Under the pieces are notes generated by a model. That model saw only the letters and a list, made by a program, of their open reading frames with translations, had not been told where the DNA came from and did no database searches. This document shows positions 33,014 through 64,000 of a stretch of DNA of 64,000 nucleotides, in pieces; position 1 is the stretch's first letter, and each line of letters starts with the position of its first letter. Both the position numbers and the translations under genes were made by a program. Source of the DNA: Patescibacteria group bacterium (lineage in GTDB: Bacteria; Patescibacteriota; Minisyncoccia; Phycocordibacterales; WO2-35-19). The stretch spans positions 884 through 64,883 of the forward strand of contig JBBUFS010000004.1 in the NCBI GenBank assembly GCA_038056395.1, in the 5' to 3' direction.

Positions 33014-33016
33014 TTA

Positions 33017-34309: not shown

Positions 34310-34336
34310 TGTAATACAGCTCTTGTTTCTAAAATA

Positions 34337-36962: not shown

Positions 36963-36985
36963 GCCATTTATCCGATTTTTATATT

Positions 36986-38340: not shown

Positions 38341-38434
38341 ATGGTTTCTCTCCGTTGTTTAGAATAATACAAATAATAACTTAAAGCAACTTGACAAAGT
38401 ATATAATATTTTTATAATCAAACGCTAGACGTCT

Positions 38435-39004: not shown

Positions 39005-39015
39005 TCGCAATTTTT

Positions 39016-40742: not shown

Positions 40743-40746
40743 TAAA

Positions 40747-46919: not shown

Positions 46920-46928
46920 ATAAAAAAT

Positions 46929-47690
46929 ATGAAAGAAAAAATAAAATCTTTTGTCAAGAAATTTTCAGAAATATTATTTAAATATGAATGTCTTCTGGCA
47001 TCTAGGTGGGCGTCAAAAGCGCACGAACATCTAAAGTGGGCTCAATGGAGAATACTGCCACAGCCAGAATTTTTTGACCATCATATTGACTTGTATTATC
47101 AATGGCTGGAAAAAAAAGATCCTCTTTGGACAGAAAGGGGTGTTTTTAGTGGTTTGGCATTAAAAGGAAACAATGTTTTAGAATTGGCCTGCGGAGACGG
47201 TTTTAACGCCAGAAATTTTTACAGCTTAAAATCAAAACAAATCATCGCATGCGATTTTGATCCAAAAGCAATAAGAACGGCAAAAAATAAAAACCCGGCT
47301 TCCAATGTTGAATATATCCTGGCCGATATAAGAAGTGAAATGCCCCAAGGAAAATTTGATAACATTATATGGGATGCGGCAATTGAACACTTCACCCCAA
47401 AAGAAATAAACAATATTCTAAAAGAAATAAAAACACGATTGAATAAGGAGGGCATATTGAGCGGCTACACAATAGTCAAAAAAGACGACGGCCAAAAATC
47501 TTTGTCACACCATGAATACGAGTTTGAAAATAAAGAGGATTTATTAAATTTTTTGGCGCCCTTTTTTAAAAACGTGACAGTTTTTGAAACTATATTTCCT
47601 AGCCGCCACAATTTGTATTTTTGGGCTTCAGATGAAAGCGATCTCCCATTCGCAAAAAACTGGAAGCATTCCATAAGCCATAATGATTAA
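46929..47690 (+). CDS. Class I SAM-dependent methyltransferase
   Basis: VLELACGDGFNARNF (motif I), IIWDAAIEHFTPKE. Confidence 0.65.
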   Translation: MKEKIKSFVKKFSEILFKYECLLASRWASKAHEHLKWAQWRILPQPEFFDHHIDLYYQWLEKKDPLWTERGVFSGLALKGNNVLELACGDGFNARNFYSLKSKQIIACDFDPKAIRTAKNKNPASNVEYILADIRSEMPQGKFDNIIWDAAIEHFTPKEINNILKEIKTRLNKEGILSGYTIVKKDDGQKSLSHHEYEFENKEDLLNFLAPFFKNVTVFETIFPSRHNLYFWASDESDLPFAKNWKHSISHND

Positions 47691-48474
47691 AAACCTTATA
47701 AAAAATATCACCCCGCCTATTATTTTAAAACTCATAAAAGGAAGACCGAGGTACGGGTTTTTTGGAAATTATAAAGCTTGGCATGAAGCGCGGGCGGATT
47801 CCGGAGGTTATGATGATGAAAAAATTTTGGAAAAAGTAAAAGATTCTTTGCTTAAAGTTAAAAACGGCCAAGCGGCATACGAAAGGGACTCGGTTTTGTT
47901 TGATAAAATTCAATATTCTTGGCCGGTTCTTTCTGCTCTATTATGGATTGCTTCGCAAAACAACAATGAATTGATTTTGATTGATTTTGGAGGCTCTCTC
48001 GGCAGCAGCTATTTCCAGAATATGGGATTTTTGAAGCATCTCAAAAAGTTAAAGTGGAATATTGTTGAACAGAAAAATTTCGTTGAATGCGGCAGAAAAT
48101 TTTTTGAAGATGAACATCTTAAATTTTTTGGCGATATTGAAGATTGCTTAAAAGAAAATAATATCAATGTTTTCTTGGCTTCAAGTTCATTCCAATATCT
48201 TGAAGATCCTTACGCTTTTATGAAAAAGATAGTTGACCTTGATTTTAAATATATCGTTATAGACAGGACTCCATATTTCAAAGAAGAAGACCTTATCACC
48301 GTGCAAAAAGTAAATCCCAAAATCTATGACGCTAGTTATCCGGCTTGGATTATAAATGAAAGTAAATTTATTAAAATTCTTGAGCCGAAATATGATTTGA
48401 TTGCCGATTGGCAATCTTCTTTTGAAAAAATCGCGCTGCGGGGATTTATTCTAAGAAATAAAAAAAATGAATAA
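47683..48474 (+). CDS. Methyltransferase-like protein (TIGR04325-like family often adjacent to radical-SAM/sugar-modifying genes)
   Basis: LIDFGGSLGSSYF (glycine-rich motif I-like), FLASSSFQYLEDPYAFMKKI; family call from memory only. Confidence 0.4.
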   Translation: MIKNLIKNITPPIILKLIKGRPRYGFFGNYKAWHEARADSGGYDDEKILEKVKDSLLKVKNGQAAYERDSVLFDKIQYSWPVLSALLWIASQNNNELILIDFGGSLGSSYFQNMGFLKHLKKLKWNIVEQKNFVECGRKFFEDEHLKFFGDIEDCLKENNINVFLASSSFQYLEDPYAFMKKIVDLDFKYIVIDRTPYFKEEDLITVQKVNPKIYDASYPAWIINESKFIKILEPKYDLIADWQSSFEKIALRGFILRNKKNE

Positions 48475-50020
48475 AACCGCAAACAAAAAAGGCCCGGTTA
48501 TACTGGTGCCCAAAGATATTTCTTTTATTTTTCCATTTGGGTATGCATATCTGGCCGGTTATTTGATTGAAAAAGGCGAGGAGGTAAAGATTTTGTTCAG
48601 GCCCAATAATCCCTCCGATTTTAAAAAATTTGTCCGGCAAATAATTGATTTGAAGCCGGTATTAGTCGGTTTCGGCACTATTTATCCAGATCTTTATCCG
48701 ATCAAAGAGTTAGTGGGGCTTTTAAACAAAGCCGGCAGAAATTTCCCTGTCGTTGTCGGCGGCCAGATGGTAACCCCCACTCCGGATTTTGCCGTAGAAA
48801 TAACCGGAGCGGACTTCGGGGTAATCGGTGAAGGGGAAATTATTTTATACGAGCTGGTTAAAGCTTTGCGCCAAGACCAGGACGTTCATCAAGTCAAAGG
48901 TATCATAATCAATGAGAACGGCAAATTATTTTCTACCGGTCCGGGCGATTTTATAAAAAATATGTCCAAATTGCCGAAAATTCCGTATGATTTATTCCCC
49001 TCCGACAAATGGCTGAATATCGGGCGATATTATGTCGGGAAAGCCCAGCCCCATTGGCGGTACAATGATAAGGTGGTTGCCATTCACGGCGGCCGAGGAT
49101 GCCCTTTCAATTGCAATTTCTGCTACCATCATAGTCTGCCGCGTTATCGCTCCATAGACGATATGTTTGAAGGGGTGGAAATGTTGATAGAAAAATATAA
49201 CGCCAATATGTTGTATTTTGCCGATGATTTGGTATTAGCCACTCCGACCAGAGCCAAAGAATTGACCGAGGCGATAAGGCGGCTCGGCCGGAAAATTGAA
49301 TATTCGGTTTCCTGTCGTTTTGACATTTTAGATCGGCTGAGCGATGAAATGCTGCGCGAAATGAAAGAAACCGGCTGCCGGATCATGGGACTTGGCATTG
49401 AATCAGGTTCGCCAAGAATGCTTGGCATTATTGATAAAAGAATTACTCCTGAACAAATTATAAGAGGCATGCGGCGCTTGAAAGACGCCGGTATTCTGTC
49501 ATCAGTAAGCATTATGGTCGGACAATACACCGAAACCCCGGAAGATGTCCAGAAATCAATGGATTTGATGCTGGAAACTTTGAAGTACGACAAGAATGCT
49601 TTCTATGCTTTCTCTATCACCACCCCTTTCCCCGGCACTCAGTTGTACGGCATCGCCTTGGAGAAAAAGATAATCAAAGATCATTTGGATTTTTATAGAA
49701 AATTTAATTCAGAAAAAGGAATTGGCGGATTGTCGGTAAACCTTTCAGCCATGAGCGATGAAGAAGTGGTGGCCATGCATCAAAAAATAAAGAACGCTTA
49801 TTTGAAAAGAAAAAGGGAGCTGGTCGGCCGGAAAGTGATAGCGGCGGAAGCCGTCCGTTATTTTACCTATCGAGTTTACAACAAAATAGCCAGGAGAATC
49901 ATAGATCGACTGCCAGCGGGACAGCCGTTCGCGCTCATCAAAAAAATATACCACGAAAGCCACAATGCCATTCAGTTTTTGTTTGATAAATTGAGGCTTT
50001 ATTTATTGGATGTCAAATAA
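48467..50020 (+). CDS. Cobalamin(B12)-binding-domain radical SAM enzyme (class B radical SAM, probable methyltransferase)
   Basis: N-terminal B12-binding-like Rossmann region (VLVGFGTIYP...VVVGG...), radical SAM cluster motif GGRGCPFNCNFCYHH (CxxxCxxC), 517 aa. Confidence 0.75.
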   Translation: MNKTANKKGPVILVPKDISFIFPFGYAYLAGYLIEKGEEVKILFRPNNPSDFKKFVRQIIDLKPVLVGFGTIYPDLYPIKELVGLLNKAGRNFPVVVGGQMVTPTPDFAVEITGADFGVIGEGEIILYELVKALRQDQDVHQVKGIIINENGKLFSTGPGDFIKNMSKLPKIPYDLFPSDKWLNIGRYYVGKAQPHWRYNDKVVAIHGGRGCPFNCNFCYHHSLPRYRSIDDMFEGVEMLIEKYNANMLYFADDLVLATPTRAKELTEAIRRLGRKIEYSVSCRFDILDRLSDEMLREMKETGCRIMGLGIESGSPRMLGIIDKRITPEQIIRGMRRLKDAGILSSVSIMVGQYTETPEDVQKSMDLMLETLKYDKNAFYAFSITTPFPGTQLYGIALEKKIIKDHLDFYRKFNSEKGIGGLSVNLSAMSDEEVVAMHQKIKNAYLKRKRELVGRKVIAAEAVRYFTYRVYNKIARRIIDRLPAGQPFALIKKIYHESHNAIQFLFDKLRLYLLDVK

Positions 50021-50744
50021 AATAATGGGAAAGATTTCCGAGACAATAAAAAAACAACAATTCAATCCGGGACTCTTGGGTGTCTTTATCAATCCTTTTT
50101 ATCTTGTCAGACGAGAGTTGTACCGAAACATATTTTCATTGGCAAAACACATAAAAGGCCGTGTTCTTGATATCGGGTGCGGCAGCAAGCCTTACCAAAA
50201 ACTTTTTACGGATGCCAAAGAGTATGCGGGGATGGAATTTGATTCGGAAGCTAACAGGGCTAAAAAACAAGCTGATATTTTTTACGATGGCAAACGCTTC
50301 CCTTTTGAAGATTCCCGGTTTGATTCGGTTATAGCCACAGAAGTGTTGGAACATGTATTCAATCCGGATGAATTTGCAAACGAAATAAATCGGGTGCTCA
50401 AGAAAGGCGGGAATGTTCTTCTGACTGTTCCATTTGTTTGGGACGAGCATGAACAGCCTTATGATTACGCCAGATATTCTTCGTTTGGTCTTTCCCATCT
50501 TCTCCAAAAACACGGCTTTAAAATAATGGAAATGCGCAAGACGCTTGGCGACATAAGAGTTGTATTTCAGCTGATAAATTGCTATGTGCATAAAATAATT
50601 CCCGTGAAAAATTATCGTTTTAGATTATGTTTTTATGTTTTATTTATCGCGCCGTTCACTATCGCGGGTATTTTGATATCTTTTATTCTGCCGAAAAACC
50701 AGGATCTTTATATGAATAATATAATTCTGGCCAAAAAAATATGA
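50010..50744 (+). CDS. Class I SAM-dependent methyltransferase (Methyltransf_11-like)
   Basis: RVLDIGCGSKPY (motif I), FDSVIATEVLEHVFNPDEFANEINRVLKKGGNVLLTVP. Confidence 0.7.
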   Translation: MSNKIMGKISETIKKQQFNPGLLGVFINPFYLVRRELYRNIFSLAKHIKGRVLDIGCGSKPYQKLFTDAKEYAGMEFDSEANRAKKQADIFYDGKRFPFEDSRFDSVIATEVLEHVFNPDEFANEINRVLKKGGNVLLTVPFVWDEHEQPYDYARYSSFGLSHLLQKHGFKIMEMRKTLGDIRVVFQLINCYVHKIIPVKNYRFRLCFYVLFIAPFTIAGILISFILPKNQDLYMNNIILAKKI

Positions 50745-51691
50745 CCAGAAATTTCTGCACTTATTTTGATAAAAATTATCTTTTGAAAGGTCTGGCTTTG
50801 CACGGTTCTCTTTTGGAATTTTGTCCAAATTTTCATCTTTGGATTCTGTGTTTTGACGATGAAAGTCACGATGCCTTGAAAAAATTAAATTTGCTGAAAA
50901 CCAGTCTCATAAAACTTTCTGATTTTGAAGATGAAAAACTTTTGGCGGTTAAAAGCGGTCGTAAAATATCCGAATATTGCTGGACATGTACTCCTTCCCT
51001 ACCCCTTTATATTTTCAAGCAAAATCCGGATTTGGAAATGCTGGCTTATCTGGACGCTGATTTGTATTTTTACAATTCTCCAAACGAAATTTATGAAGAA
51101 TTTGGTCATAATTCAATAATGATAATTCCTCACAATTTTTCAAAAGACCAAAAATTCAGGGAGAAAACCAGCGGCATTTATAATGTAGGCATGCTTATTT
51201 TCAAAAATGACGCTAACGCTTTGGAGTGTTTAAATTGGTGGCGGGATAAATGTCTGGAGTGGTGCTTTGATTATTATGAAGATGGTAAGTTTGGCGATCA
51301 ACTTTACTTAAACGATTGGCTAAAAAGATTCAAAGGTGTCCATGTTTTAAAAAATCCCGGAGCAAATGTGGCCTCTTGGAATATCAGAAATTATGATTCT
51401 TCAAAATGGCCACTTATTTTTTATCACTTCCATGGGATAAGATTGTTCAATGTTTTTGGAAAAATAAAAGCAAAAAATCAAAATATCAATGGTATTGAAA
51501 ATAAATTTATTTTTACAAAATATTCTCAAACCCTTACTAATTGTTTGCATAATATTAAAAAAATAGACAAAAATTTTAATTGCAGGACAGAAAGCAATAT
51601 AAAATACTTGTTTTGGATAATAAAATATTTCTTGCAAAGAATAAAAAGTGTGTTATCTCTGTTTAATATCTTTCTGCTTATAAAAATATGA
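50741..51691 (+). CDS. GT-A-fold nucleotide-diphospho-sugar transferase (GT8-like)
   Basis: FCTYFDKNYLLKGLALHGSL...LWILCFDDES ... AYLDADLYFY (DxD). Confidence 0.45.
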   Translation: MTRNFCTYFDKNYLLKGLALHGSLLEFCPNFHLWILCFDDESHDALKKLNLLKTSLIKLSDFEDEKLLAVKSGRKISEYCWTCTPSLPLYIFKQNPDLEMLAYLDADLYFYNSPNEIYEEFGHNSIMIIPHNFSKDQKFREKTSGIYNVGMLIFKNDANALECLNWWRDKCLEWCFDYYEDGKFGDQLYLNDWLKRFKGVHVLKNPGANVASWNIRNYDSSKWPLIFYHFHGIRLFNVFGKIKAKNQNINGIENKFIFTKYSQTLTNCLHNIKKIDKNFNCRTESNIKYLFWIIKYFLQRIKSVLSLFNIFLLIKI

Positions 51692-52228
51692 TAATTTTTT
51701 GATTATGGGTATTTGGAGTGGCAATAAATTTTTAGGTAATTTATTTAATGGGAAAAATTTTTCTATCTGATTTTCTCTTTTTTTTCCTTTTAGTTCAGCC
51801 GTAAAAACAAAAGAAAATTCATGACCCCTAGGAGATTCACCAATATTTTTTCCAAAAGGTCTTTCAAACCAATCAAAAAAAGATTCTTTAGTTATTGGCA
51901 TTTTGATTTCTTCTTTACAAACTCTTTCTATGGTATTTCCTATCTTTTCCGTAGGAATACATACCCGACCGGGAATATGCCAACCCTTAAAAAATTTATC
52001 TTTCCTATAAGTTAAAAATATTTCTGGATTTTTGTCCTTATTTTTGATAACTATAACTTCGGCACAAACCGTACCAAAAACTTGACACCAAGCTTCAAAA
52101 ACTGGGAGTGGTGTCGGGAAAGAGAGTTTATTTATTAACCTTACTAGTTCTTTTTCTTCTTGGCTTGTTAAAGAAGTCATTAGATATAGTATCAAACCTC
52201 TGTGATATTTATAGCCTGGGCCGGGCAA
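51653..52228 (-). CDS. NUDIX-like hydrolase (degenerate Nudix box)
   Basis: KGWHIPGRVCIPTEKIGNTIERVCKEEIKM approximates GX5EX7REUXEEXGU with one insertion. The probable start is an internal Met (MTSLTSQEEK...), which avoids overlap with the upstream gene. Confidence 0.4.
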   Translation of the reverse strand: MPGPGYKYHRGLILYLMTSLTSQEEKELVRLINKLSFPTPLPVFEAWCQVFGTVCAEVIVIKNKDKNPEIFLTYRKDKFFKGWHIPGRVCIPTEKIGNTIERVCKEEIKMPITKESFFDWFERPFGKNIGESPRGHEFSFVFTAELKGKKRENQIEKFFPLNKLPKNLLPLQIPIIKKLSYFYKQKDIKQR

Positions 52229-52419
52229 CCCTCTGCCGCTTCTTTCACTTTTTTTAATTGTTCATCGGTTAATTCTATTAACAATGTCTCTACCAGCTCG
52301 CCATTTTCGTTTAGTTTGCCCTTAAAATCTTTTTCATCGTACTTAAACAATTCCGGCGCGCAGTTCATGCAGAAACTGCAGCCGATGCATTCGTTTTGAT
52401 TTATGGTTATTTTAGCCAT
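52192..52419 (-). CDS. Small [4Fe-4S] ferredoxin
   Basis: 75 aa; CIGCSFCMNC...C(P) cysteine pattern; immediately downstream of, and overlapping, a radical SAM gene. Confidence 0.65.
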   Translation of the reverse strand: MAKITINQNECIGCSFCMNCAPELFKYDEKDFKGKLNENGELVETLLIELTDEQLKKVKEAAEGCPAQAINITEV

Positions 52420-53911
52420 GTAAAGATTTTAATCTATTATATCTCTTTGCCGACAATTGAAAAAATTTCTTTAACCAGACTATAGTTCGCACTTCAACTG
52501 GCCAGCGCCAAAAGTTGTTTTTGAATCGAAAAATAATCAGGATTCTAAATAATTTAATCAGCAGATGCCGCGCGACATTTTTTGGCGATTTGTCAGTCAG
52601 AGATTTCAATCTCTTGCCATACCAGGCAAATGGACTCAGCTCGTGGATAATTTCATATTCTTTGTGGTTTTTAATCCAGGGCAGGCGCGCCTTGCCCCAA
52701 AAATAGCTTCCCCATTCTTCCAGTGTTTGAGGCGGTTTAAACCCCAAGTCCAAGGCTTTATTAAATAAAATCGTACCAGGATATGGAATATAAATCCATA
52801 AAGGATAAAAGGCGGCCTTGTTGTAAATTTTTTGCAATTTTAATATCAGGTCAACGGTTTCTTGTCTCTCGGTTATAGTTTCAGTCGGCCAGCCAATGAC
52901 AAACGACAGCATTAATTTTAAATCCAGAGATTTGGCCACTTCTACCGCCTTGATAGTTTGTTCAACCGTAATGCCTTTTCGGATAACCTCCCGCAAAATA
53001 CGGTCGGAACCGCTTTCGCAGCCCACCCGCAGTTCGCATAAACCGCTGTCTTTCAATTCTTTCAAAAAAACATAATCAAAATAATCCACTCGGGCGTCAA
53101 TTGAATATTTTATTTTAAGTTTTTTTTCTTTTATAAGTCGCCCGAATTCCAAAGCGCGACTCCGGTCTACCACAAAATTGTCATCGTGAATAACAAAATA
53201 ATTTATGCCATAATTTTTGTGCAAAAATTCCAGCTCTTCAAAGGCCTTTTGAGCAGTCTTGGCCCGCCATTTGCGTTTGTTAAAAAATAAGTTATAGCAA
53301 AAACTGCACGGGAAAGGGCATCCTTTGCTGGTATAAAAATCTATTACCCGTTCGCCGGGATTATGCGACAGAGCTTTAACATAACGCTCCACTGGAATTA
53401 AATCCCAAGCCGGCCTGGGCAATTCGTTCATATCAAGAAAATCTTCCGAAATTTTATTTATTCTAGCCCGGCCTTTTTCTTTCCAACCCAAATTTTCTAT
53501 ATTATCAAAAAACAAATTGTGTTCCAATGTTTCTAATAACAATTTCAATGTTTTCTCTCCTTCATTAATAACAACAAAGTCAATTGAGGGGTGCGCCAAA
53601 GTTTGCTCCGGAAAAAAAGTGGGGTGAATGCCGCCGACTATTATTTTTACATTTGAATCAATAGCTCTTATTTTTTGGCTGATTTTTATAATTTGCAAAA
53701 TGCAGCTGCCTGTCAGCATGCTAAAACCAACGGCCAAAGGTTTTTTCTCTTTAATTAAATCGCAAAGCTTATCTGCCGAACTGAAACGCAAATCAACAAT
53801 TTGGACATCAAAATCGCCTCTTATGTAAGCGGCCAAACTTATTAAACCAAGCGGCGCATAAGCCGCCTCATTTAACCCGTTTTCCGGCTGAATCAAAATA
53901 ATTTTTCTCAT
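52412..53911 (-). CDS. Cobalamin(B12)-binding-domain radical SAM enzyme (second copy, class B-like)
   Basis: ILIQPE...LGLISLAAY...VGFSMLTG...IIVGGIHPT (B12-binding-like) and YTSKGCPFPCSFCYN (CxxxCxxC); 499 aa. Confidence 0.75.
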   Translation of the reverse strand: MRKIILIQPENGLNEAAYAPLGLISLAAYIRGDFDVQIVDLRFSSADKLCDLIKEKKPLAVGFSMLTGSCILQIIKISQKIRAIDSNVKIIVGGIHPTFFPEQTLAHPSIDFVVINEGEKTLKLLLETLEHNLFFDNIENLGWKEKGRARINKISEDFLDMNELPRPAWDLIPVERYVKALSHNPGERVIDFYTSKGCPFPCSFCYNLFFNKRKWRAKTAQKAFEELEFLHKNYGINYFVIHDDNFVVDRSRALEFGRLIKEKKLKIKYSIDARVDYFDYVFLKELKDSGLCELRVGCESGSDRILREVIRKGITVEQTIKAVEVAKSLDLKLMLSFVIGWPTETITERQETVDLILKLQKIYNKAAFYPLWIYIPYPGTILFNKALDLGFKPPQTLEEWGSYFWGKARLPWIKNHKEYEIIHELSPFAWYGKRLKSLTDKSPKNVARHLLIKLFRILIIFRFKNNFWRWPVEVRTIVWLKKFFQLSAKRYNRLKSLHG

Positions 53912-53915
53912 TAGA

Positions 53916-55010: not shown

Positions 55011-55019
55011 TTTTATATA

Positions 55020-55745: not shown

Positions 55746-55758
55746 TATAACAGGCAAA

Positions 55759-56808
55759 TTACAATCCCTCAATAGCTCTAATAATATCGCGGCCAAGTTT
55801 AATGGGAGATAATTTTTCTTCATATAAATGGTACCCGTTATTTGCGATTTTTTGTATTAAATTCTCATCATTTTTCAATTCCAATATTTTCTTCGCCAAG
55901 TCCTTCGGGTCGGCATTGTTTGCCATCAAACAATTTTCCCTATCAGTTAATAATTCTGAAACCGCGGCATTTTGACCAGTAACATATGGCAAACCCATAG
56001 CTAACGATTCAAAGGCCTTATGCGGAATTGTCCTCTGCAAACGAACATGGTTTCCGAATTGACCCAAGGAAACATGGCATTCAAGCATTTTCTCCCGCAA
56101 TTCATTAATTGGTAAATATTGATTAACCCATTTAAGGTTGTTTGGCTTTAAGGACTTAATTAGCGATTCAATATTTTCCTCCACCACACCACTACCTATA
56201 ATAAGAAATTCTACGTTGTTGTCTTCTAAAAGTTTTGCCGCCTGAACAATATATTCAATCCCCGCTTCCGGCAAAAACATACCTCTGAATAAAACCTTGA
56301 ATTTCTCTCTTTTTTTAATATCTGAATCGAGATGAAATATTTCTTCATCTGTTCCCGTAAAAATTCTGACGACCTTTTCACCTGATAAATTAAATTTTTT
56401 TATAAAATAATTTTTTTGAGCTTCTGACTCAACCAAGATCAAATCGGCGCATTTTGCCGCCAACCAATCAATAAATAAAACCGACCATTTCATAAAAAAA
56501 TTATATTTATATAAATTTCTGGAGAGAATTTCGCCTTCATATAAAGTGCATAGGGCATCAAAAATTACGGGCTTTTTGGAAATAAGTTTGGCCAACCAAA
56601 CAACCACATGGCCGGGATAACCGACTATCAAATAATCGTAATCATTTCTGATTTTCCAGTGTTTAAAAAATAATCTGACAAATTTTATGAACCCGCGCGA
56701 AGCATCGCGGCATTCTATGATTTCAACGCCATTTTGCTTCAACCCGTCAATATAGGTCTTATTGCGGCCAAAATCAGGCCTATATATGCCAAAATAGCAG
56801 ATTTTCAT
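55759..56808 (-). CDS. GT-B-fold glycosyltransferase (GT1/GT4-like); paralogue of 61346..62395
   Basis: 349 aa, N-terminus MKICYFGIYRPDFGRN; C-terminal ...FRGMFLPEAGIEYIVQAAKLL...FLIIGSG...FESLAMGLPYVTG. Confidence 0.6.
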   Translation of the reverse strand: MKICYFGIYRPDFGRNKTYIDGLKQNGVEIIECRDASRGFIKFVRLFFKHWKIRNDYDYLIVGYPGHVVVWLAKLISKKPVIFDALCTLYEGEILSRNLYKYNFFMKWSVLFIDWLAAKCADLILVESEAQKNYFIKKFNLSGEKVVRIFTGTDEEIFHLDSDIKKREKFKVLFRGMFLPEAGIEYIVQAAKLLEDNNVEFLIIGSGVVEENIESLIKSLKPNNLKWVNQYLPINELREKMLECHVSLGQFGNHVRLQRTIPHKAFESLAMGLPYVTGQNAAVSELLTDRENCLMANNADPKDLAKKILELKNDENLIQKIANNGYHLYEEKLSPIKLGRDIIRAIEGL

Positions 56809-56840
56809 AAAGCGTAATTATGTGATATATTAGCATAATT

Positions 56841-57899
56841 ATGGGGAAAATTCCTAATAAATTAGCTGGTACAATGCTGGTTTTTGGCGGTGCCGGATTC
56901 ATAGGATCAAATTTTATACGATATATTTTGGATAAAAACGGGGCAGTAAAGATCGTAAATATTGATCTGCTCACCTATTCGGGAGATCTTCAAAACCTCA
57001 AAGATGTTGAAAAAAATTCAAACTACACGTTTATTAAGGGTGATGTGGCAGATACCATTCTCGTTAATCGTTTAGCCAAAAAATACAAACCGGATTATAT
57101 AATAAATTTTGCAGCTGAAACTCATGTGGACAGAAGCATTCATGTTGGGGCTCGGGAATTTATAGAAACAAACATTGTCGGTGTTTTTAATATACTTGAA
57201 GCGATAAAAACATATAAAGTTAAAAAATATGTTCAGGTGAGTACCGACGAGGTTTACGGATCGCTTCCTTTGGATTCAAAAAATAAATTTGACGAATCAA
57301 GCCCCATTCTTCCAAACGCTCCTTACGCGGCCACAAAAGCGGGAGGAGATTTGTTATGTAATGCTTATTACTCTACCTGGAAATTACCGGTAGTGGTAAC
57401 CCACTGCTCAAACAATTACGGCCCTTACCAGTATCCGGAAAAGCTTATTCCTTTTTTTGTTTTAAGAATGATTGAAAATAAAAAGCTGCCGATGTACGGG
57501 GACGGTAAAAATGTCAGGGACTGGATTCATGTGGAGGATCACTGCCGAGCTCTTGAATTGTGTTTGTTAAACGGAGTACCTGGACAGGTATACAACATCG
57601 GAGCCGATAATGAAAAAAATAACTTGGAAATCGCAGGCCTTATCCTTTCTTTTTTTGGGCGGGACAAATCATGGCTTGAGTTTGTTTCCGACCGCCCGGG
57701 GCATGATCGCCGATATGCCATAAACAATTCAAAAATAAAAAGAGAACTTGGGTGGAAACCTTTGAAAGAATTCGATGAAGAATTTAAAAAAACCGTAAAC
57801 TGGTATATTGAAAATCCGAAATGGATCGATCATATTAGAAAAAAAACCAATGTCTTTAATCCCCATATTGATTTATGGAGAAAACATAAAATAAAATGA
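56841..57899 (+). CDS. rfbB: dTDP-glucose 4,6-dehydratase
   Basis: MLVFGGAGFIGSNFIRYIL...DLLTYSGDLQNL...FAAETHVDRSI...VSTDEVYG...YAATKAGGDLL...YGDGKNVRDWIHVEDHC; the actual start may be the Met at 56874. Confidence 0.9.
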   Translation: MGKIPNKLAGTMLVFGGAGFIGSNFIRYILDKNGAVKIVNIDLLTYSGDLQNLKDVEKNSNYTFIKGDVADTILVNRLAKKYKPDYIINFAAETHVDRSIHVGAREFIETNIVGVFNILEAIKTYKVKKYVQVSTDEVYGSLPLDSKNKFDESSPILPNAPYAATKAGGDLLCNAYYSTWKLPVVVTHCSNNYGPYQYPEKLIPFFVLRMIENKKLPMYGDGKNVRDWIHVEDHCRALELCLLNGVPGQVYNIGADNEKNNLEIAGLILSFFGRDKSWLEFVSDRPGHDRRYAINNSKIKRELGWKPLKEFDEEFKKTVNWYIENPKWIDHIRKKTNVFNPHIDLWRKHKIK

Positions 57900-58621
57900 A
57901 GGGCATAATCTTAGCTGGAGGCAAAGGCACCCGCCTGCTACCTCTCACCAAAATCACCAATAAGCATCTACTACCCCTCTTTAACCGAGCGATGATAGAT
58001 TATCCTCTGCAGACTCTCCTTCGGGCCGGTATCAAAGATATTTTGGTTGTCTCAGGCAGAGAACATGCAGGAGATTTCATTGAATACCTCGGTTCAGGTA
58101 AGGATTTCGGCGCCAAACTAACTTATAAAGTCCAGGAAGATGCCGGAGGTATCGCTCAAGCACTTTTGCTTGCCGAAGATTTCAGTTGTGGTGATTTCGT
58201 TACTGTTATATTGGGCGATAATGTATTTGGAAACAGCTTCTCGAACAAGCTTAAAAATTTTACAGGAGGAGCGAAAGTTTTCTTGAAAAAAGTTTTCGAC
58301 CCGGAACGTTTTGGTGTAGCAGTTTTGAGTGGCAAAAAAGTAACCGAAATAATAGAAAAACCGAAAAAAGCTCCGTCAAATTTTGCTGTCACCGGCGTTT
58401 ATCAGTACGATAACAAAGTGTTTAATATCATAAAAACACTCAAACCTTCCGCTCGGGGCGAATTTGAACAAACAGATGTAAATAATGTTTATATAAATAA
58501 GGGTGAGATGAAAGCCGAATTTATTTCTGGTTTTTGGTCCGATGCGGGGACTTTTGATTCAATGTTTAAAACAATTAACTGGGCAGTTAAAAAAAACGAT
58601 CATGAAAATAAAACTAAATAA
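57896..58621 (+). CDS. rfbA: Glucose-1-phosphate thymidylyltransferase (short form)
   Basis: MKGIILAGGKGTRLLPLTKITNKHLLPLFNRAMIDYPLQTLLRAGIKDILVV ... VILGDNVF ... EKPKKAPSNFAVTGVY. Confidence 0.85.
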   Translation: MKGIILAGGKGTRLLPLTKITNKHLLPLFNRAMIDYPLQTLLRAGIKDILVVSGREHAGDFIEYLGSGKDFGAKLTYKVQEDAGGIAQALLLAEDFSCGDFVTVILGDNVFGNSFSNKLKNFTGGAKVFLKKVFDPERFGVAVLSGKKVTEIIEKPKKAPSNFAVTGVYQYDNKVFNIIKTLKPSARGEFEQTDVNNVYINKGEMKAEFISGFWSDAGTFDSMFKTINWAVKKNDHENKTK

Positions 58622-59441
58622 AGTACTCATAACGGGAGCGGACGGAATGGTGGGGAGTTATGCCGATTTTGGAATTAAAACAAACAGAAGGTCTCTGGAT
58701 GTAATCGACCTCAAGGAGGTTTTAGCTGTATGCAAAAAATATAAGCCCGAAGCCATTATTCATCTAGCGGCCGAAACCGATGTCGATAGGTGCGAACGAG
58801 ATCCGGAGTATGCTTACACGGTAAATTCTATTGGCACCTATAATATGGCAGTGGCCGCTAAAGAATTAGGTATTAAATTAGTCTATGTTTCCACTGCTGG
58901 AGTATTCGATGGTCAGAAAAAGACTCCTTATAACGAAAAAGATGAACCTAACCCCCAAAATTATTATGGCCGGTCGAAATTTTTAGGAGAGCTGATAATC
59001 AAAGGAATGTTGAAAGACTATATTATTGCACGAGTGTGTTGGATGTTTGGAGGCGGGCCGGAAAAAGACCAGAAATTTGTAGCAAAAATAATCAGGCAGT
59101 TAGATAAAAAAGAAATTAAAGTTGTTACTGATCAAATTGGTTCGCCTACTTTTGGTAAAGATCTCATTACTAGCATAAAAAAACTTATCAAAAAAGATGC
59201 AAAAGGAATATATAATCTTGCTAATCGAGATATTTGTTCGAGATATGAGTTTGCAGAGGCTATTGTAAAAATTTTAAAAAAGAATACAAAAATATTACCA
59301 GTTAAAATGAATGATTTTAAAATGGACGCTTTCCGAACATATAATGAGAGTATGGTTTCAAAAATTAAAACCCAAAGAAATTGGCAGGGTGCCTTAAAAG
59401 AATACTTGGAAACGGAGTGGAAAAGTTATGAAAAAATTTAA
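58602..59441 (+). CDS. rfbD: dTDP-4-dehydro-6-deoxyhexose reductase (RmlD family)
   Basis: VLITGADGMVGS...IIHLAAETDVDRCERDPEYAYTVNSIGTYNMA...YGRSKFLGE. Start at the internal Met MKIKLNKVLITG; the track ORF begins at 58542 and overlaps rfbA. Confidence 0.75.
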   Translation: MKIKLNKVLITGADGMVGSYADFGIKTNRRSLDVIDLKEVLAVCKKYKPEAIIHLAAETDVDRCERDPEYAYTVNSIGTYNMAVAAKELGIKLVYVSTAGVFDGQKKTPYNEKDEPNPQNYYGRSKFLGELIIKGMLKDYIIARVCWMFGGGPEKDQKFVAKIIRQLDKKEIKVVTDQIGSPTFGKDLITSIKKLIKKDAKGIYNLANRDICSRYEFAEAIVKILKKNTKILPVKMNDFKMDAFRTYNESMVSKIKTQRNWQGALKEYLETEWKSYEKI

Positions 59442-60729
59442 ACTCAAAAAAAGATGCGGGATGTGCAGTGGTAAAGATTTTTTTGAAATTCTTAACATCG
59501 GGGAAATGCCTCCGGCTAACGCTTTTTTAGAGAAAAAGGATTTTGATAAGGAAGAGAGTTTCCCTTTGGGTGTGCAGCTATGTAAAAATTGCAAATCTTT
59601 ACAGCTCCGCCAGGTAATTTCTCCCAAGCTTATTTTTCAGGATTATTGTTATGCAACAAGAGCAAGCAAACCGCTGGTGGAACATTTTCATCGGCTAGCA
59701 GAAGAGATTGCAAATAATTATGTCCAATCTTCAAATGATCTTGTAATAGAGATCGGCAGTAATGATGGTGCCTTATTATCAAAAATTAAAGATCGATGTC
59801 GAGTATTGGGAATTGATCCAGCGAGCAATATGGCAAAGACCGCTATCCAAGAAGGGGTACCAACTCTTGTTGAATTTTTTGACACCAAACTTTCAGAAAA
59901 AATCAAATCTGAAATGAAAGAAGCAAGGGTAATAGTGGCAAATAATGTAATGGCTCATATAGAAGACCTTAGAGATGTCTTTTCCGGCGTAAAAAAACTG
60001 CTCTCGCCGGAAGGAAAATTTATTTTTGAAGTCCATTGGGTCGGCAATCTCTTAAATGAAGGAGGATTTGATCAGATATACCATGAACATCTTTACTACC
60101 ATTCATTGCATAGTTTGCAGGTATTATTAAATTCTTTGGGTATGACAGTAAACGATGTAAAATTAGTGCCCATTCATGGAGAATCTATAAGAGTTTATGC
60201 GGGAAATTCAGGAACATCTTCTGAAGCGGTACGCAAACTTTTGGATTGTGAAATTGAAATGGGACTTTTAGATACAAAAACTTATCAAAATTTTTCCAAA
60301 AAGGTTGAATCAAACAAAGGAAAACTTAATAAACTTCTAGCAAAGCTGAAAAAAGACGGCAAAAAAATAGTGGGTTATGGGGCGCCAGCCAAAGGTAATA
60401 CATTGTTAAATTATTTTAAGATAGGACCGGAGATACTAGATTACATAACCGACACTACTCCTTCTAAGCAAGGCAAATATACTCCTGGGACTCATATTTT
60501 AGTTGTCTCTCCGGAAATATTATTGAAAGATCTCCCTGATTACGCACTTCTGCTTTCTTGGAATTATGCTGATGCAATACTAGAGAAAGAAAAGGAACTA
60601 AGAAAAAAAGGTTTAAAATTCATTATTCCTGTTCCAGAAGTTAGGATTGTAGAACTTTGCAATGATAAACCATTCGAAAACCTAGCAAATTTTTCCATAA
60701 ATTCGGTAGCCAAGGCAATAATCCCCTAA
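59428..60729 (+). CDS. NDP-hexose C-methyltransferase (TylC3/NovU-like; zinc-ribbon N-domain + MTase + C-methyltransferase C-terminal domain)
   Basis: CGMCSGKDFFEILNIGEMPPANAF...CKNCKSLQL (Cys4 ribbon), VIEIGSNDGALL (motif I), C-terminal domain ...IVGYGAPAKGNTLLNYF... Confidence 0.75.
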   Translation: MKKFKLKKRCGMCSGKDFFEILNIGEMPPANAFLEKKDFDKEESFPLGVQLCKNCKSLQLRQVISPKLIFQDYCYATRASKPLVEHFHRLAEEIANNYVQSSNDLVIEIGSNDGALLSKIKDRCRVLGIDPASNMAKTAIQEGVPTLVEFFDTKLSEKIKSEMKEARVIVANNVMAHIEDLRDVFSGVKKLLSPEGKFIFEVHWVGNLLNEGGFDQIYHEHLYYHSLHSLQVLLNSLGMTVNDVKLVPIHGESIRVYAGNSGTSSEAVRKLLDCEIEMGLLDTKTYQNFSKKVESNKGKLNKLLAKLKKDGKKIVGYGAPAKGNTLLNYFKIGPEILDYITDTTPSKQGKYTPGTHILVVSPEILLKDLPDYALLLSWNYADAILEKEKELRKKGLKFIIPVPEVRIVELCNDKPFENLANFSINSVAKAIIP

Positions 60730-61336
60730 ATGTGAAGCCGTCGGATACGGGAGCAAAGACAACTTCAAGCCCCAAAGCCGAAAGCCAATCCAAAAAATCA
60801 ATATGGGACCAGTAACGCAGATGCTCTGACGGGTGATAAATCCACTGAGTAAAAAATCTGCCCCCAAACATCAGTCCGTAACGAAATTGATAAGAGGCGC
60901 TGTTGGGAACAGTTATCAAAAAATATTTAGTACAGGGTTTTAAGGCTTTGATAATCTGTTCTGGATTGCGAGTGTGTTCTAGAACTTCGCTTAAAATTAA
61001 ATAATCAAATTGGTCTGGTAATTTTATACTGTCAATTTTTTCCAGATTAATTTCAAAACTGTTTATCCCCAATTCCCGATATTGATCAAGAACCGTTTTT
61101 GAGATATCAGCCACTGAAACCATACAATTTTTTTCTTTTAATTTGAGTGGCAGCAGCGAATTGCCACAACCAATATCGGCTATTTTGGATTTAGTTGGAA
61201 TAATATCAAGCATGATTTTCTCTCTGGGTTTCAATCCGGAATTAAGCTTCCAACCACGAAATTGCCAATAATCGTTATAATCGATTTCTTTTACATTTTG
61301 AAAATCCGGTTTTCTGATCCAAGGTGATGAAAACAT
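60641..61336 (-). CDS. Class I SAM-dependent methyltransferase
   Basis: IADIGCGNSLLPLKL (motif I), FDYLILSEVLEHTRNPEQIIKAL. Its 3' end overlaps the convergent C-methyltransferase gene by about 89 nt. Confidence 0.65.
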   Translation of the reverse strand: MFSSPWIRKPDFQNVKEIDYNDYWQFRGWKLNSGLKPREKIMLDIIPTKSKIADIGCGNSLLPLKLKEKNCMVSVADISKTVLDQYRELGINSFEINLEKIDSIKLPDQFDYLILSEVLEHTRNPEQIIKALKPCTKYFLITVPNSASYQFRYGLMFGGRFFTQWIYHPSEHLRYWSHIDFLDWLSALGLEVVFAPVSDGFTFRGLLPWLPNLWKNLLGFRMVYHCKVLQS

Positions 61337-61345
61337 GGTACAAAT

Positions 61346-63837: not shown

Positions 63838-64000
63838 ATAAAGTTTAAGCCCATGATTATAACAAATTATGCCTAATGTTTCAATTATAAGAAAAGTTCT
63901 AACTTTTTTACCGGCTTCTCTGCCGGCAAAAATATATCACGCGGCATCGCTAGTGCCGGCCTTCAAAACAATTTTGAATAAGATTATTTTATCCAGAATC

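What the first reader, a model, noticed from the sequence alone, without database searches (positions are those of the whole stretch)
46929..61336. Methylation-heavy deoxysugar module: two B12-radical-SAM enzymes + ferredoxin, NDP-hexose C-methyltransferase, six or more class-I methyltransferases, and RfbA/B/D without RmlC
rfbA-rfbB-rmlD-like genes are followed directly by a TylC3/NovU-type C-methyltransferase, and no 3,5-epimerase (RmlC) is present in the window. This predicts a dTDP-6-deoxy-D-hexose that is C-3-methylated rather than L-rhamnose. Two class-B (cobalamin-domain) radical SAM proteins with a dedicated ferredoxin suggest additional methylation at unactivated carbons (GenK/Fom3-like chemistry) on a sugar. 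Several O/N-methyltransferases are also present, including a TIGR04325-like one. Such density of methylation enzymes in a glycan locus is unusual.
Basis: partly seen in the sequence, partly recalled or inferred. Interest (0 to 1): 0.6.

Follow-up and report, generated by a model that had tools for sequence, protein, structure and literature searches.

The report
Mosaic methyl-sugar glycan locus, Patescibacteria
This stretch of an uncultured groundwater Patescibacteria genome is a patchwork of three separately conserved gene cassettes for decorating a cell-surface sugar polymer; one very probably makes a carbon-methylated 6-deoxy sugar, and two pair glycosyltransferases with uncharacterised vitamin-B12-type radical enzymes whose chemistry cannot yet be read from sequence.

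Summary
Present are RmlB, a short RmlA, RmlD, a TylC3/TcaB9-type C-methyltransferase, two B12-domain radical SAM proteins, a 75-aa ferredoxin and a TIGR04325 methyltransferase. No RmlC occurs in the 64 kb window or in 9.8 kb beyond it. The methyltransferase count is overstated: five SAM methyltransferases lie in the interval, including the C-MT.

The interval is not one deoxysugar module. It is three independent cassettes.

- **Cassette A:** GT2-like, TIGR04325 MT, rSAM#1, GT8-like. It recurs in 27 genomes from many bacterial phyla and two methanogens, and never sits next to the C-MT.
- **Cassette B:** GT4, rSAM#2, ferredoxin. It is specific to Patescibacteria (candidate phyla radiation, CPR).
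- **Cassette C:** RmlB, RmlA, RmlD, C-MT. It is widespread in Patescibacteria. Natural RmlD::C-MT fusion proteins exist. RmlC was absent in 5 of 6 contexts and present in 1.

Two further B12-rSAM paralogs lie just past the window. One is fused to a polyprenyl-phosphate-type GT2.

A C-methylated 6-deoxyhexose product is well supported. The D versus L configuration and C3 versus C5 position are unresolved.

The rSAMs have the class-B architecture but match no curated family. Their nearest solved relatives include both methylases and non-methylases. Radical C-methylation of the glycan is therefore plausible but unproven.

The parts
45969..46919 (+).
   Evidence: Weak Pfam hits to Glycos_transf_2 and GNT-I. 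A homologue (24-63% id) lies within 10 kb of the rSAM#1 homologue in 12 of 27 genome loci, 11 of them on the same strand within 3 kb.
46929..47690 (+). Class-I SAM methyltransferase, lineage-specific insert in cassette A.
   Evidence: Methyltransf_25/11/31. No homologue in the 27 rSAM#1 loci.
47683..48474 (+). TIGR04325 (LIC12133-type) methyltransferase, cassette A.
   Evidence: NCBIfam TIGR04325 234.1 bits, cutoff 80. Homologue within 10 kb of rSAM#1 homologues in 14/27 loci, 12 of them on the same strand within 3 kb.
48467..50020 (+). B12-domain radical SAM protein #1, core of cassette A.
   Evidence: PF02310 plus PF04055. CPFNCNFC at residue 212. AF2 pLDDT 91.7 with fold hits to TsrM, MgmA, AprD4, OxsB, CysS and TokK. 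More than 120 clusters at 49% identity or higher across phyla.
50010..50744 (+). Class-I SAM methyltransferase overlapping the rSAM#1 stop.
   Evidence: Methyltransf_23/11. Not conserved with rSAM#1 (1/27). An rSAM#1::class-I MT fusion (P0137, 783 aa) exists elsewhere, with an unrelated MT domain.
50741..51691 (+). GT8-like glycosyltransferase (DAD motif), last gene of cassette A.
   Evidence: Weak Glyco_transf_8 hit. Homologue (36-52% id) in 20/27 rSAM#1 loci, 16 of them on the same strand within 3 kb and often directly downstream.
51653..52228 (-). NUDIX hydrolase, not conserved with either rSAM.
   Evidence: PF00293. No close homologue in related loci; only 27% identity over 97 aa in L124.
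52192..52419 (-). Single-cluster ferredoxin, translationally coupled to rSAM#2.
   Evidence: CIGCSFC...CP motif. Fer4_13/Fer4_15. Conserved at 69% identity in the same position in the syntenic relative L124. Absent next to rSAM#2 homologues in L118-L120.
52412..53911 (-). B12-domain radical SAM protein #2, cassette B.
   Evidence: PF02310 76 bits plus PF04055. CPFPCSFC at residue 198. AF2 pLDDT 92.1 with fold hits to OxsB (TM 0.77), MgmA, AprD4, TsrM and TokK. About 55 clusters at 60-83% identity; every source name given is Patescibacteria or Portnoybacteria, apart from one unclassified 'bacterium'.
53916..55010 (-). GT4 glycosyltransferase directly upstream of rSAM#2, cassette B.
   Evidence: Glycos_transf_1 155 bits. 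A GT4 gene immediately precedes the rSAM#2 homologue in L118, L119, L120 and L124. The window's GT4 is 41-74% identical to those of L119, L120 and L124.
55020..55823 (-). GT2 of the AglJ/ArnC/dolichyl-P-hexose type. The probable start gives 245 aa (55020-55757).
   Evidence: PF00535. Best NCBIfam hits are AglJ and Und-P-Ara4FN transferase, both below cutoff. Gene call in L001.
55759..56808 (-). GT1-family (GT-B) glycosyltransferase.
   Evidence: Glycos_transf_1 and Glyco_trans_1_2. 80% identical in L124.
56841..57899 (+). dTDP-glucose 4,6-dehydratase RmlB, cassette C.
   Evidence: TIGR01181 443.6 bits, cutoff 365.1. 45% identity to E. coli RfbB.
57896..58621 (+). Short-form glucose-1-phosphate thymidylyltransferase RmlA, cassette C.
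   Evidence: NTP_transferase 180 bits. TIGR01207 233.6 bits, below cutoff 360.65 because the C-terminal part is missing. 44% identity to E. coli RfbA.
58602..59441 (+). RmlD-type dTDP-4-keto-sugar reductase, cassette C. The start at 58602 keeps the GxxGxxG motif.
   Evidence: TIGR01214 234.7 bits, cutoff 224.05. GADGMVG and YGRSK motifs. 56-86% identity in five related cassettes.
59428..60729 (+). TylC3/TcaB9/MtmC-type NDP-hexose C-methyltransferase, cassette C. Homologues end near residues 408-410.
   Evidence: Methyltransf_13 plus Methyltransf_14. PDB matches MtmC 8.8e-85, KijD1 and TcaB9. More than 120 Patescibacteria clusters at 54-82% identity, including RmlD::C-MT fusions.
60641..61336 (-). 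MetW-like class-I methyltransferase, convergent with the C-MT.
   Evidence: MetW and Methyltransf_23. 78% identical and syntenic in L124.
61346..62395 (-). GT1-family glycosyltransferase.
   Evidence: Glycos_transf_1. 82% identical in L124.
62392..63837 (-). PMT_2 (GT-C, ArnT-like) membrane glycosyltransferase.
   Evidence: PF13231. PMT_2 genes recur beside the Rml-C-MT cassette in L121, L122 and L125 and beside rSAM#2 homologues in L118-L120.

Best explanation
The interval is part of a cell-surface glycan island at least 45 kb long, in a Patescibacteria (CPR) genome assembled from a metagenome (MAG). It is built from three cassettes that are each conserved on their own.

**Cassette C (56841-60729).**
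- RmlA and RmlB make dTDP-4-keto-6-deoxy-D-glucose.
- The zinc-domain C-methyltransferase methylates a carbon next to the 4-keto group. C-3 is most likely, by analogy with MtmC, KijD1 and TcaB9.
- The RmlD-type reductase reduces C-4, giving a dTDP-6-deoxy-C-methyl-hexose.
- An RmlC encoded in the cassette is not needed.

**Cassette A (45969-51691) and cassette B (52192-55010).**
- Each pairs one or two glycosyltransferases with a class-B (B12-domain) radical SAM enzyme.
- Two more such paralogs lie just beyond the window. One is fused to a polyprenyl-phosphate GT2.
- These enzymes most likely tailor a sugar after, or while, their partner glycosyltransferase places it on a lipid-linked or growing glycan.
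- The most probable chemistry is cobalamin-mediated methylation of an unactivated carbon, with the ferredoxin supplying electrons to rSAM#2.
- Class-I methyltransferases add O-methyl groups.

**Basis.** Shown: domain content, cassette conservation, the fusions, and the absence of RmlC locally. Inferred: every chemical step, the substrates, and cobalamin use.
For: - Domains and curated-family scores.
- Cassette C: RmlD::C-MT fusions P0265, P0266, P0271 and P0294. The same four-gene cassette lacks RmlC in L121, L122, L124 and L125. The C-MT keeps the Cys4 site and the TcaB9 active-site positions.
- Cassette A: in 27 genome loci with rSAM#1 homologues (46-77% identity; many bacterial phyla plus Methanospirillum and Methanoregula), the GT8-like gene is present in 20, TIGR04325 in 14 and the GT2-like gene in 12. 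They mostly lie on the same strand within 3 kb. The C-MT is present in 0.
- Cassette B: a GT4 gene lies directly upstream of rSAM#2 homologues in L118-L120 and L124. The ferredoxin is kept in L124.
- Mosaic structure: in L124 the block 52192-63837 is conserved, at 55-86% identity for all genes but the terminal PMT_2 (41%). Cassette A is replaced there by other sugar genes.
- Links between GTs and rSAMs: an AglJ/ArnC-type GT2::B12-rSAM fusion in L001 and a Bac_transf::rSAM fusion, P0092.
- Both AF2 models (pLDDT about 92) have the class-B fold.
- From the two reviews consulted (PMC12931638, PMC13331322) and my own knowledge, most characterised class-B enzymes are methylases. From memory, GenK, GenD1 and MoeK5 C-methylate already-assembled saccharides.
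Against: - No rSAM here reaches any curated family cutoff. The best-scoring models are BchE and ApyD.
- The closest solved relative by profile is AprD4, a diol dehydratase that binds no cobalamin. OxsB, a non-methylase, is the top fold hit for rSAM#2 (PMC12931638).
- Cobalamin binding cannot be read from sequence.
- One related cassette C carries RmlC with an equally similar RmlD, so the RmlC-less state may not define the product.
- The GT2, GT1 and PMT_2 genes flanking cassette C in other genomes are only 21-43% identical to those here. A shared transfer route is therefore not shown.
- No biochemical or compositional data exist.
Confidence: 0.55

Rival explanations
1. The B12-domain radical SAM proteins tailor sugars but do not methylate them. 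They might act as AprD4-like dehydratases or deoxygenases, radical epimerases, or OxsB-like rearrangement enzymes. If so, the locus makes deoxy or rearranged sugars rather than extra C-methyl groups.
For: - AprD4, which acts on an aminoglycoside sugar, is the best solved-structure match by sequence and by profile for both proteins.
- OxsB is the top fold hit for rSAM#2.
- BchE and HpnJ models score as high as the methylase models.
Against: - The PF02310 matches are solid (58 and 76 bits).
- The AprD4 matches cover only the radical SAM core (residues 203-424 and 156-392).
- Methylases (MgmA/QCMT, TsrM, TokK, CysS) are equally close in fold.
- No AprD3-type partner reductase is adjacent to either rSAM.
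Confidence: 0.25
2. Cassette C makes an L-configured C-methyl sugar, for example a 3-C-methyl-L-rhamnose-like or noviose-like sugar. It would use an RmlC encoded elsewhere in the genome. The local absence of RmlC would then be only a matter of gene arrangement.
For: - The reductase passes the RmlD equivalog cutoff.
- A related cassette (L123) has RmlC between RmlA and RmlD, and its RmlD is 63% identical to this one.
- Only about 74 kb of the genome could be inspected.
Against: - RmlC is absent from 5 of 6 cassette contexts, each inspected over 8-10 kb on either side of the fetched gene.
- RmlD::C-MT fusions form a self-contained unit without it.
- RmlC is absent from the window plus 9.8 kb, even when searched with a Patescibacteria query.
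Confidence: 0.3
3. The radical SAM proteins act on a non-sugar substrate, such as the polyprenyl carrier, a membrane lipid or a peptide, and only happen to lie in the glycan island.
For: - Relatives by HMM score include the lipid-modifying HpnJ, HpnR and ladderane enzymes and the peptide-modifying ApyD and MgmA.
- The fusion partner in L001 is a polyprenyl-phosphate GT2.
Against: - Association with glycosyltransferases holds across phyla and two domains of life, in operon-like arrangement.
- No precursor peptide or lipid-synthesis genes were seen nearby.
Confidence: 0.1

Closest known systems
NDP-hexose C-3-methyltransferases TcaB9, KijD1, MtmC (TylC3/EryBIII family)
   Same: - Three-domain architecture: zinc ribbon, SAM domain and Methyltransf_14 domain.
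- E-values of 1e-77 to 9e-85 over the full length.
- Cys4 site and the Tyr, His and Tyr-x-Glu-His positions conserved.
- Fed by a dTDP-glucose 4,6-dehydratase.
   Different: - From memory, the characterised members act on 2,6-dideoxy or 3-amino-2,3,6-trideoxy 4-keto sugars in antibiotic pathways of actinomycetes.
- Here there is no 2,3-dehydratase, 3-ketoreductase or sugar 3-aminotransferase in the cassette. The substrate is therefore presumably dTDP-4-keto-6-deoxyglucose itself.
- The product goes to a cell-envelope glycan.
- The position of methylation was not tested.
dTDP-L-rhamnose pathway RmlABCD and the noviose pathway NovV/T/W/U/S
   Same: RmlA, RmlB and an RmlD-type 4-ketoreductase are present. 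In the noviose pathway, a C-MT and an RmlD-like reductase work on the same 4-keto intermediate (from memory).
   Different: There is no RmlC/NovW epimerase in 74 kb, nor in 5 of 6 related cassettes.
Class-B radical SAM C-methylases acting on assembled saccharides (GenK, GenD1, MoeK5)
   Same: The B12-domain plus radical SAM architecture, and genomic embedding among glycosyltransferases. From memory, these enzymes methylate unactivated sugar carbons after glycosyl transfer.
   Different: - No direct comparison with GenK, GenD1 or MoeK5 sequences was possible, and no curated methylase family cutoff is met.
- They occur in primary cell-surface glycan loci of CPR, diverse bacteria and methanogens, not in antibiotic clusters.
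- Some are fused to GT2 or Bac_transf domains.
AprD4 (radical SAM 1,2-diol dehydratase of apramycin biosynthesis)
   Same: It is the best solved-structure sequence match to both rSAMs, and it acts on a sugar ring.
   Different: - AprD4 does not bind cobalamin (PMC12931638).
- The match is confined to the radical SAM core.
- No AprD3-type partner reductase is adjacent to the rSAMs here.
Three-component polyprenyl-phosphate-sugar glycosylation (ArnC/ArnT, GtrB/GtrA/GT-C, GacI/GacL)
   Same: AglJ/ArnC-like GT2 genes, GtrA-domain genes and several PMT_2 GT-C genes flank the cassettes here and in relatives.
   Different: The donor and acceptor are unknown. The neighbouring genes are only family-level matches (21-43% identity). 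A B12-rSAM fused to the GT2 is not a feature of the known systems.

Membership tests
Class-B (cobalamin-dependent) radical SAM enzymes | CX3CX2C cluster motif in a radical SAM TIM-barrel core | tested here: met
   PF04055 at 83 and 74 bits. CPFNCNFC at residue 212 and CPFPCSFC at residue 198.
Class-B (cobalamin-dependent) radical SAM enzymes | N-terminal Rossmann-type B12-binding domain | tested here: met
   PF02310 at 57.9 and 76 bits, cutoff 32.1. The AF2 models match the full length of OxsB, TsrM, MgmA and TokK at TM 0.58-0.77.
Class-B (cobalamin-dependent) radical SAM enzymes | Actual cobalamin binding and use | not testable with these tools
   AprD4 shows that a Rossmann-like domain can lack cobalamin (PMC12931638). 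No sequence motif decides the matter (PMC13331322).
Curated class-B methylase families (HpnR, PhpK, QCMT, TsrM, KedN5, RiPP C-MT, P-MT) | Score above the NCBIfam family cutoff | tested here: not met
   All four paralogs fall far below every cutoff. Their best scores are 123-240 bits, against cutoffs of 481-750 bits for the top-scoring models.
TylC3/TcaB9-type NDP-hexose C-methyltransferase | Methyltransf_13 zinc domain, SAM domain and Methyltransf_14 C-terminal domain | tested here: met
   53.6 and 179.9 bits, both above cutoff.
TylC3/TcaB9-type NDP-hexose C-methyltransferase | Cys4 zinc site and active-site Tyr76/His181/Tyr222/Glu224/His225 (TcaB9 numbering; the residue roles are recalled from memory) | tested here: met
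   Alignment to 3ndi: C10, C13, C52 and C55 are present. Tyr, His and the Y-H-E-H stretch are conserved at the aligned positions.
TylC3/TcaB9-type NDP-hexose C-methyltransferase | Methylation at C-3 of a 4-keto sugar | not testable with these tools
   All three solved relatives are C-3 enzymes. No C-5 enzyme such as NovU was available for comparison.
dTDP-L-rhamnose pathway (RmlABCD) | RmlB dehydratase and RmlD reductase | tested here: met
   TIGR01181 443.6 bits (cutoff 365.1). TIGR01214 234.7 bits (cutoff 224.05).
dTDP-L-rhamnose pathway (RmlABCD) | RmlC 3,5-epimerase | tested here: not met
   No hit better than E=0.18 (E. coli query) or E=3.5 (Patescibacteria query) in the window plus 9.8 kb.
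TIGR04325 (LIC12133) methyltransferases | Score above the family cutoff | tested here: met
   234.1 bits, cutoff 80. NCBI names the identical protein MEK7116778.1 a TIGR04325 family methyltransferase.

The most novel reading that the evidence does not exclude
Glycosyltransferase-coupled B12-radical SAM enzymes would be an unrecognised, widespread class of cell-surface glycan tailoring enzymes. Examples are the GT2like-TIGR04325-rSAM-GT8like cassette, the GT4-rSAM pair, and the GT2::rSAM and Bac_transf::rSAM fusions. They would install C-methyl groups, or other radical modifications, on lipid-linked or polymer sugars in CPR bacteria, many other phyla and methanogens. Genome-reduced Patescibacteria with four such enzymes in one locus would then depend on scavenged cobalamin to build their surface.
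Probability: 0.35. Interest if true: 0.75.

Novelty: new variant of a known kind. Interest (0 to 1): 0.55.

Why it matters
C-methyl-branched sugars are rare in cell-envelope glycans, and their biosynthesis outside antibiotic pathways is poorly known. This locus gives a compact, recurrent four-gene route (RmlB-RmlA-RmlD-C-MT, sometimes with RmlD and C-MT fused) that can be reconstituted directly.

It also defines conserved pairings of uncharacterised B12-type radical SAM enzymes with glycosyltransferases. Each pairing supplies a candidate substrate, namely the product of the partner GT. Lack of a candidate substrate is the usual obstacle to assigning function in this enzyme class.

If the enzymes do use cobalamin, surface-glycan synthesis would be a concrete cofactor dependency of Patescibacteria on their hosts or community. 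I state from memory, without checking it here, that Patescibacteria generally lack cobalamin biosynthesis.

Tried and rejected
- **Single deoxysugar module.** Rejected. The cassettes have independent distributions, and cassette A is swapped out in the syntenic relative L124.
- **Classifying the rSAMs by curated HMMs, PDB sequence or profile search, and fold search.** None separates methylases from non-methylases.
- **Metagenome scan with the rSAM#2 alignment.** It returned only distant relatives (25-36% identity), because the back-translated patterns were generic. It was not used for context statistics, apart from noting ferredoxin adjacency in L052 and L112.
- **Dedicated ferredoxin as a general feature.** Rejected. 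It is conserved only in the closest relative.
- **The rSAM#1::MT fusion P0137 as a Rosetta stone for the downstream MT at 50010.** Rejected. The MT domains share only 27% identity over 108 aa.
- **Walking further along the source contig.** Not possible. No L001 protein was among the searchable ids.
- **AFDB fold library.** Unavailable.
- **TcaB9 mechanism paper.** Not held.
- **Literature searches for B12-rSAMs in O-antigen, polysaccharide or CPR loci, and for TIGR04325.** No relevant study was found.

Full report
**Source and setting**

The window comes from an uncultured Patescibacteria (CPR) genome. Identical proteins are deposited as NCBI MAG 'Patescibacteria group bacterium' (MEK7116756 to MEK7116791) on a 92.9 kb contig. 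The same sequence occurs in Hainich groundwater 0.1 µm-filter metagenomes.

The closest named relatives of rSAM#2 are Candidatus Portnoybacteria. An ENA contig (locus L001) is 100% identical to window 52392-64000 in reverse orientation. It adds 9.8 kb beyond the window end.

**Checking the observation**

ORF listing, Pfam and NCBIfam give the following gene map.

| Coordinates | Strand | Gene |
|---|---|---|
| 46929-47690 | + | class-I methyltransferase |
| 47683-48474 | + | TIGR04325 methyltransferase (234 bits, cutoff 80) |
| 48467-50020 | + | B12-binding plus radical SAM protein (rSAM#1) |
| 50010-50744 | + | class-I methyltransferase |
| 50741-51691 | + | weak GT8-like protein |
| 51653-52228 | - | NUDIX hydrolase |
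| 52192-52419 | - | 75-aa CxxCxxC...CP ferredoxin |
| 52412-53911 | - | B12-binding plus radical SAM protein (rSAM#2) |
| 53916-55010 | - | GT4 |
| 55020-55823 | - | AglJ/ArnC-like GT2 |
| 55759-56808 | - | GT1-family transferase |
| 56841-57899 | + | RmlB (TIGR01181 443.6 bits, cutoff 365.1) |
| 57896-58621 | + | short 241-aa RmlA |
| ~58602-59441 | + | RmlD (TIGR01214 234.7 bits, cutoff 224.05) |
| 59428-60729 | + | C-methyltransferase (Methyltransf_13 plus Methyltransf_14) |
| 60641-61336 | - | MetW-like methyltransferase |
| 61346-62395 | - | GT1-family transferase |
| 62392-63837 | - | PMT_2 GT-C transferase |

- The described genes are therefore real.
- The methyltransferase count is overstated. 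There are four plain SAM methyltransferases plus the C-MT in the interval. One more lies at 36084-36962. An FkbM-type one lies just outside the window.
- RmlC is absent. tblastn with E. coli RfbC gave a best E of 0.18, inside a GT gene. A Patescibacteria RmlC taken from locus L123 gave a best E of 3.5. Both searches covered the window plus L001. E. coli RfbA, RfbB and RfbD hit the expected genes at 1.7e-58, 4e-97 and 4.6e-27.
- Pfam scans of the other large ORFs of the window found no cupin-type sugar isomerase either.

**The locus extends further**

Beyond the window end, L001 carries two more B12-binding radical SAM genes. One is a 489-aa protein. The other is a 725-aa fusion whose N-terminal half is an AglJ/ArnC/dolichyl-phosphate-hexose-type GT2. 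L001 also carries an FkbM methyltransferase, two more PMT_2 GT-C proteins and more glycosyltransferases.

The four radical SAM paralogs are only 25-30% identical to one another. All carry CX3CX2C.

Upstream in the window lie three further glycan features:
- a Wzm/Wzt ABC exporter with a Wzt_C domain (28566-30671);
- a Wzy_C-plus-TPR protein (26294-28594);
- a nonulosonic-acid-type gene set (33017-43881).

The finding is therefore one part of a surface-glycan island of at least 45 kb.

**Cassette C: the dTDP-sugar genes**

- The C-MT matches the solved C-3-methyltransferases MtmC (8.8e-85), KijD1 and TcaB9 over its full length.
- In the printed alignments it keeps the four zinc cysteines. It also keeps the residues aligned with TcaB9 Tyr76, His181, Tyr222, Glu224 and His225.
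- Its homologues form more than 120 clusters at 54-82% identity. Every source name given is from Patescibacteria, apart from one unclassified 'bacterium'. Most are about 408-410 aa long. The last roughly 23 codons of the ORF here, which overlap the convergent gene, are therefore probably an extension.
- Four homologues (P0265, P0266, P0271, P0294; 665-688 aa) are natural fusions of an RmlD_sub_bind domain with the C-MT. Here the two genes overlap by 14 nt. This is strong evidence that the reductase and the methyltransferase act in the same pathway.
- In five of six genomic contexts the cassette is RmlB-RmlA-RmlD-C-MT with no RmlC: the window, L124, L122, L121 and L125. In one (L123) a PF00908 RmlC sits between RmlA and RmlD.
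- The RmlD of that RmlC-containing cassette is 63% identical to the one here. That falls within the range of the RmlC-less cassettes (56-86%).

A dTDP-6-deoxy-C-methyl-hexose product is therefore well supported. RmlC may be encoded elsewhere, and C-5 methylation as in noviose biosynthesis cannot be excluded.

No 2,3-dehydratase or 3-ketoreductase is present in the window. The substrate is thus presumably dTDP-4-keto-6-deoxyglucose itself, unlike the 2,6-dideoxy substrates of the solved relatives (from memory).

**Cassette A: rSAM#1 and its partners**

rSAM#1 has over 120 homologue clusters at 49% identity or higher, from many phyla. A scan of species-representative genomes returned 27 loci with full-length homologues at 46-77% identity. 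They come from:
- Patescibacteria and several Desulfobacterota lineages;
- Lentisphaerae/Victivallales, Omnitrophota and Bdellovibrionales;
- Cyanobacteriota and Actinomycetota;
- the methanogens Methanospirillum and Methanoregula.

tblastn of every window gene against these loci showed which neighbours travel with rSAM#1.

| Window gene | Loci with a homologue (of 27) | Same strand within 3 kb |
|---|---|---|
| GT8-like (50741) | 20 | 16 |
| TIGR04325 methyltransferase | 14 | 12 |
| GT2-like (45969) | 12 | 11 |
| C-MT | 0 | - |
| RmlD | 1 | - |

- Several loci have exactly the order GT2like-TIGR04325-rSAM-GT8like.
- Three further contexts show the same association with GTs, class-I methyltransferases and additional B12-rSAM paralogs. 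One of them is a fusion of an rSAM#1-like protein with a class-I methyltransferase.
- Fourteen of the 27 loci hold more than one B12-rSAM.

Cassette A is thus an independent, horizontally mobile unit that is not tied to the dTDP module.

**Cassette B: rSAM#2**

- About 55 homologue clusters at 60-83% identity carry only Patescibacteria or Portnoybacteria source names, apart from one unclassified 'bacterium'. Identity then drops to 44% or lower.
- In L118, L119, L120 and L124 a GT4 gene lies immediately upstream, often overlapping, as it does here. The window's GT4 is 41-74% identical to those of L119, L120 and L124.
- The ferredoxin is retained, 69% identical and overlapping the rSAM stop, only in the closest relative L124. 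It is absent next to rSAM#2 homologues in L118-L120.
- Among all fetched loci a similar ferredoxin abuts a distant rSAM relative only twice, in L052 and L112. The 'dedicated ferredoxin' is real but specific to this lineage.
- The NUDIX gene is not conserved.
- A homologue fused to a Bac_transf sugar-phosphate transferase domain (P0092) exists.

**Mosaic structure**

L124 is syntenic with window 52192-63837. From the ferredoxin to GT1_61346 the genes are 55-86% identical to those here; the terminal PMT_2 is only 41% identical. In place of cassette A it carries a GT2like::FkbM fusion, a GT8-like gene, a 2,3-dehydratase-like gene, a GFO/IDH oxidoreductase, FdtA and another FkbM methyltransferase. 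This shows directly that the cassettes are exchanged as units.

**What the radical SAM proteins do**

- AlphaFold models built on 33-sequence alignments are confident, with pLDDT of 91.7 and 92.1.
- Their best PDB fold matches are exclusively the class-B set: TsrM, MgmA/QCMT, AprD4, OxsB, CysS and TokK, at TM about 0.6-0.77. The class-B architecture is confirmed.
- Function is not. No NCBIfam family cutoff is approached. The best-scoring models are BchE, ApyD, HpnJ, the P-methyltransferases and the ladderane enzyme.
- By sequence profile the order of solved relatives is AprD4, then MgmA/QCMT, then OxsB, then TsrM, TokK and CysS. AprD4 is a sugar diol dehydratase that binds no cobalamin. QCMT (PDB 9ccb) is a glutamine C-methylase, and OxsB catalyses a ring contraction (PMC12931638).
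- A recent review gives no sequence motif that predicts cobalamin binding or methyl transfer (PMC13331322).

The constant pairing with glycosyltransferases, and the fusions to a polyprenyl-phosphate GT2 and to Bac_transf, argue that the substrates are sugars. Those sugars would be on lipid carriers or on the growing glycan, not the dTDP-sugar of cassette C.

From memory, GenK, GenD1 and MoeK5 are precedents for B12-rSAM C-methylation of already-assembled saccharides. Most characterised class-B enzymes are methylases. I rate methylation the single most likely chemistry at about 45%.

**Comparison with what is known, and novelty**

- Cassette C is a new member or variant of the TylC3-type branched-sugar pathways. 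It operates in a cell-envelope glycan and, as a rule, without an epimerase.
- Cassettes A and B belong to the class-B radical SAM superfamily but to no characterised family.
- Four full-text searches found no study of B12-rSAMs in polysaccharide, O-antigen or CPR glycan loci. The single paper holding the term TIGR04325 is a Leptospira transcriptome study.
- High methyltransferase and rSAM density is not unique to this window. It recurs in related and unrelated uncultured lineages.
- I classify the finding as a new variant of a known kind, of moderate interest. It offers well-defined, testable enzyme-partner pairs but no direct evidence of chemistry.

Noticed in passing
window 287-11314 (-): A single 3675-aa ORF holds three intein or Hint-type splicing domains and two NYN ribonuclease-domain matches. 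The host protein was not identified.
   Followed up: partly
window 10000-14000: GC content drops to 0.32, against 0.38-0.48 elsewhere. The trough coincides with the end of the giant ORF and an IS200-like Y1 transposase ORF at 12498-13151.
   Followed up: no
window 26294-30671: A 766-aa Wzy_C (O-antigen-ligase-like) protein with TPR repeats lies next to Wzm and a Wzt carrying a Wzt_C carbohydrate-binding domain. The layout recalls ABC-transporter-dependent S-layer or O-glycan clusters in which a terminal methyl cap is recognised (from memory). Similar Wzy_C-TPR genes flank related loci L119 and L123.
   Followed up: partly
window 31223-43881: A nonulosonic-acid-type gene set is present: PseB-like dehydratase, DegT aminotransferase, NeuB, and a CMP-sugar-type cytidylyltransferase. 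It also includes an ATP-grasp protein, a formyltransferase-like protein, a PIG-L deacetylase, a GNAT, an APH-type kinase and two HAD phosphatases.
   Followed up: no
L001 2494-4671 (-), beyond window end: A 725-aa fusion joins an AglJ/ArnC-type polyprenyl-phosphate GT2 to a B12-binding radical SAM domain. A fourth B12-rSAM lies at L001 7603-9072 next to an FkbM methyltransferase.
   Followed up: partly
loci L004/L005, L012, L013, L016, L022, L032, L034: An FdtA-type 3,4-ketoisomerase gene lies within 10 kb of the rSAM#1 homologue in eight fetched loci (seven distinct contexts; L005 duplicates L004). These span several phyla. This hints that in those genomes the cassette accompanies 3-keto or 3-amino-6-deoxyhexose synthesis.
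   Followed up: no
window 60641-60729: The C-MT ORF and the convergent MetW-like methyltransferase ORF overlap by 89 nt. C-MT homologues end about 23 residues earlier, so the tail of the C-MT ORF may be an extension.
   Followed up: partly
loci L025, L026: rSAM#1 homologues at about 49% identity occur in Methanospirillum and Methanoregula MAGs. This suggests transfer of the gene between bacteria and archaea.
   Followed up: no
window 58542-58647: The automatic gene call for RmlD in the public contig starts at the Met corresponding to window 58647. That start cuts off the GxxGxxG dinucleotide-binding motif. A start at 58602 keeps it.
   Followed up: yes
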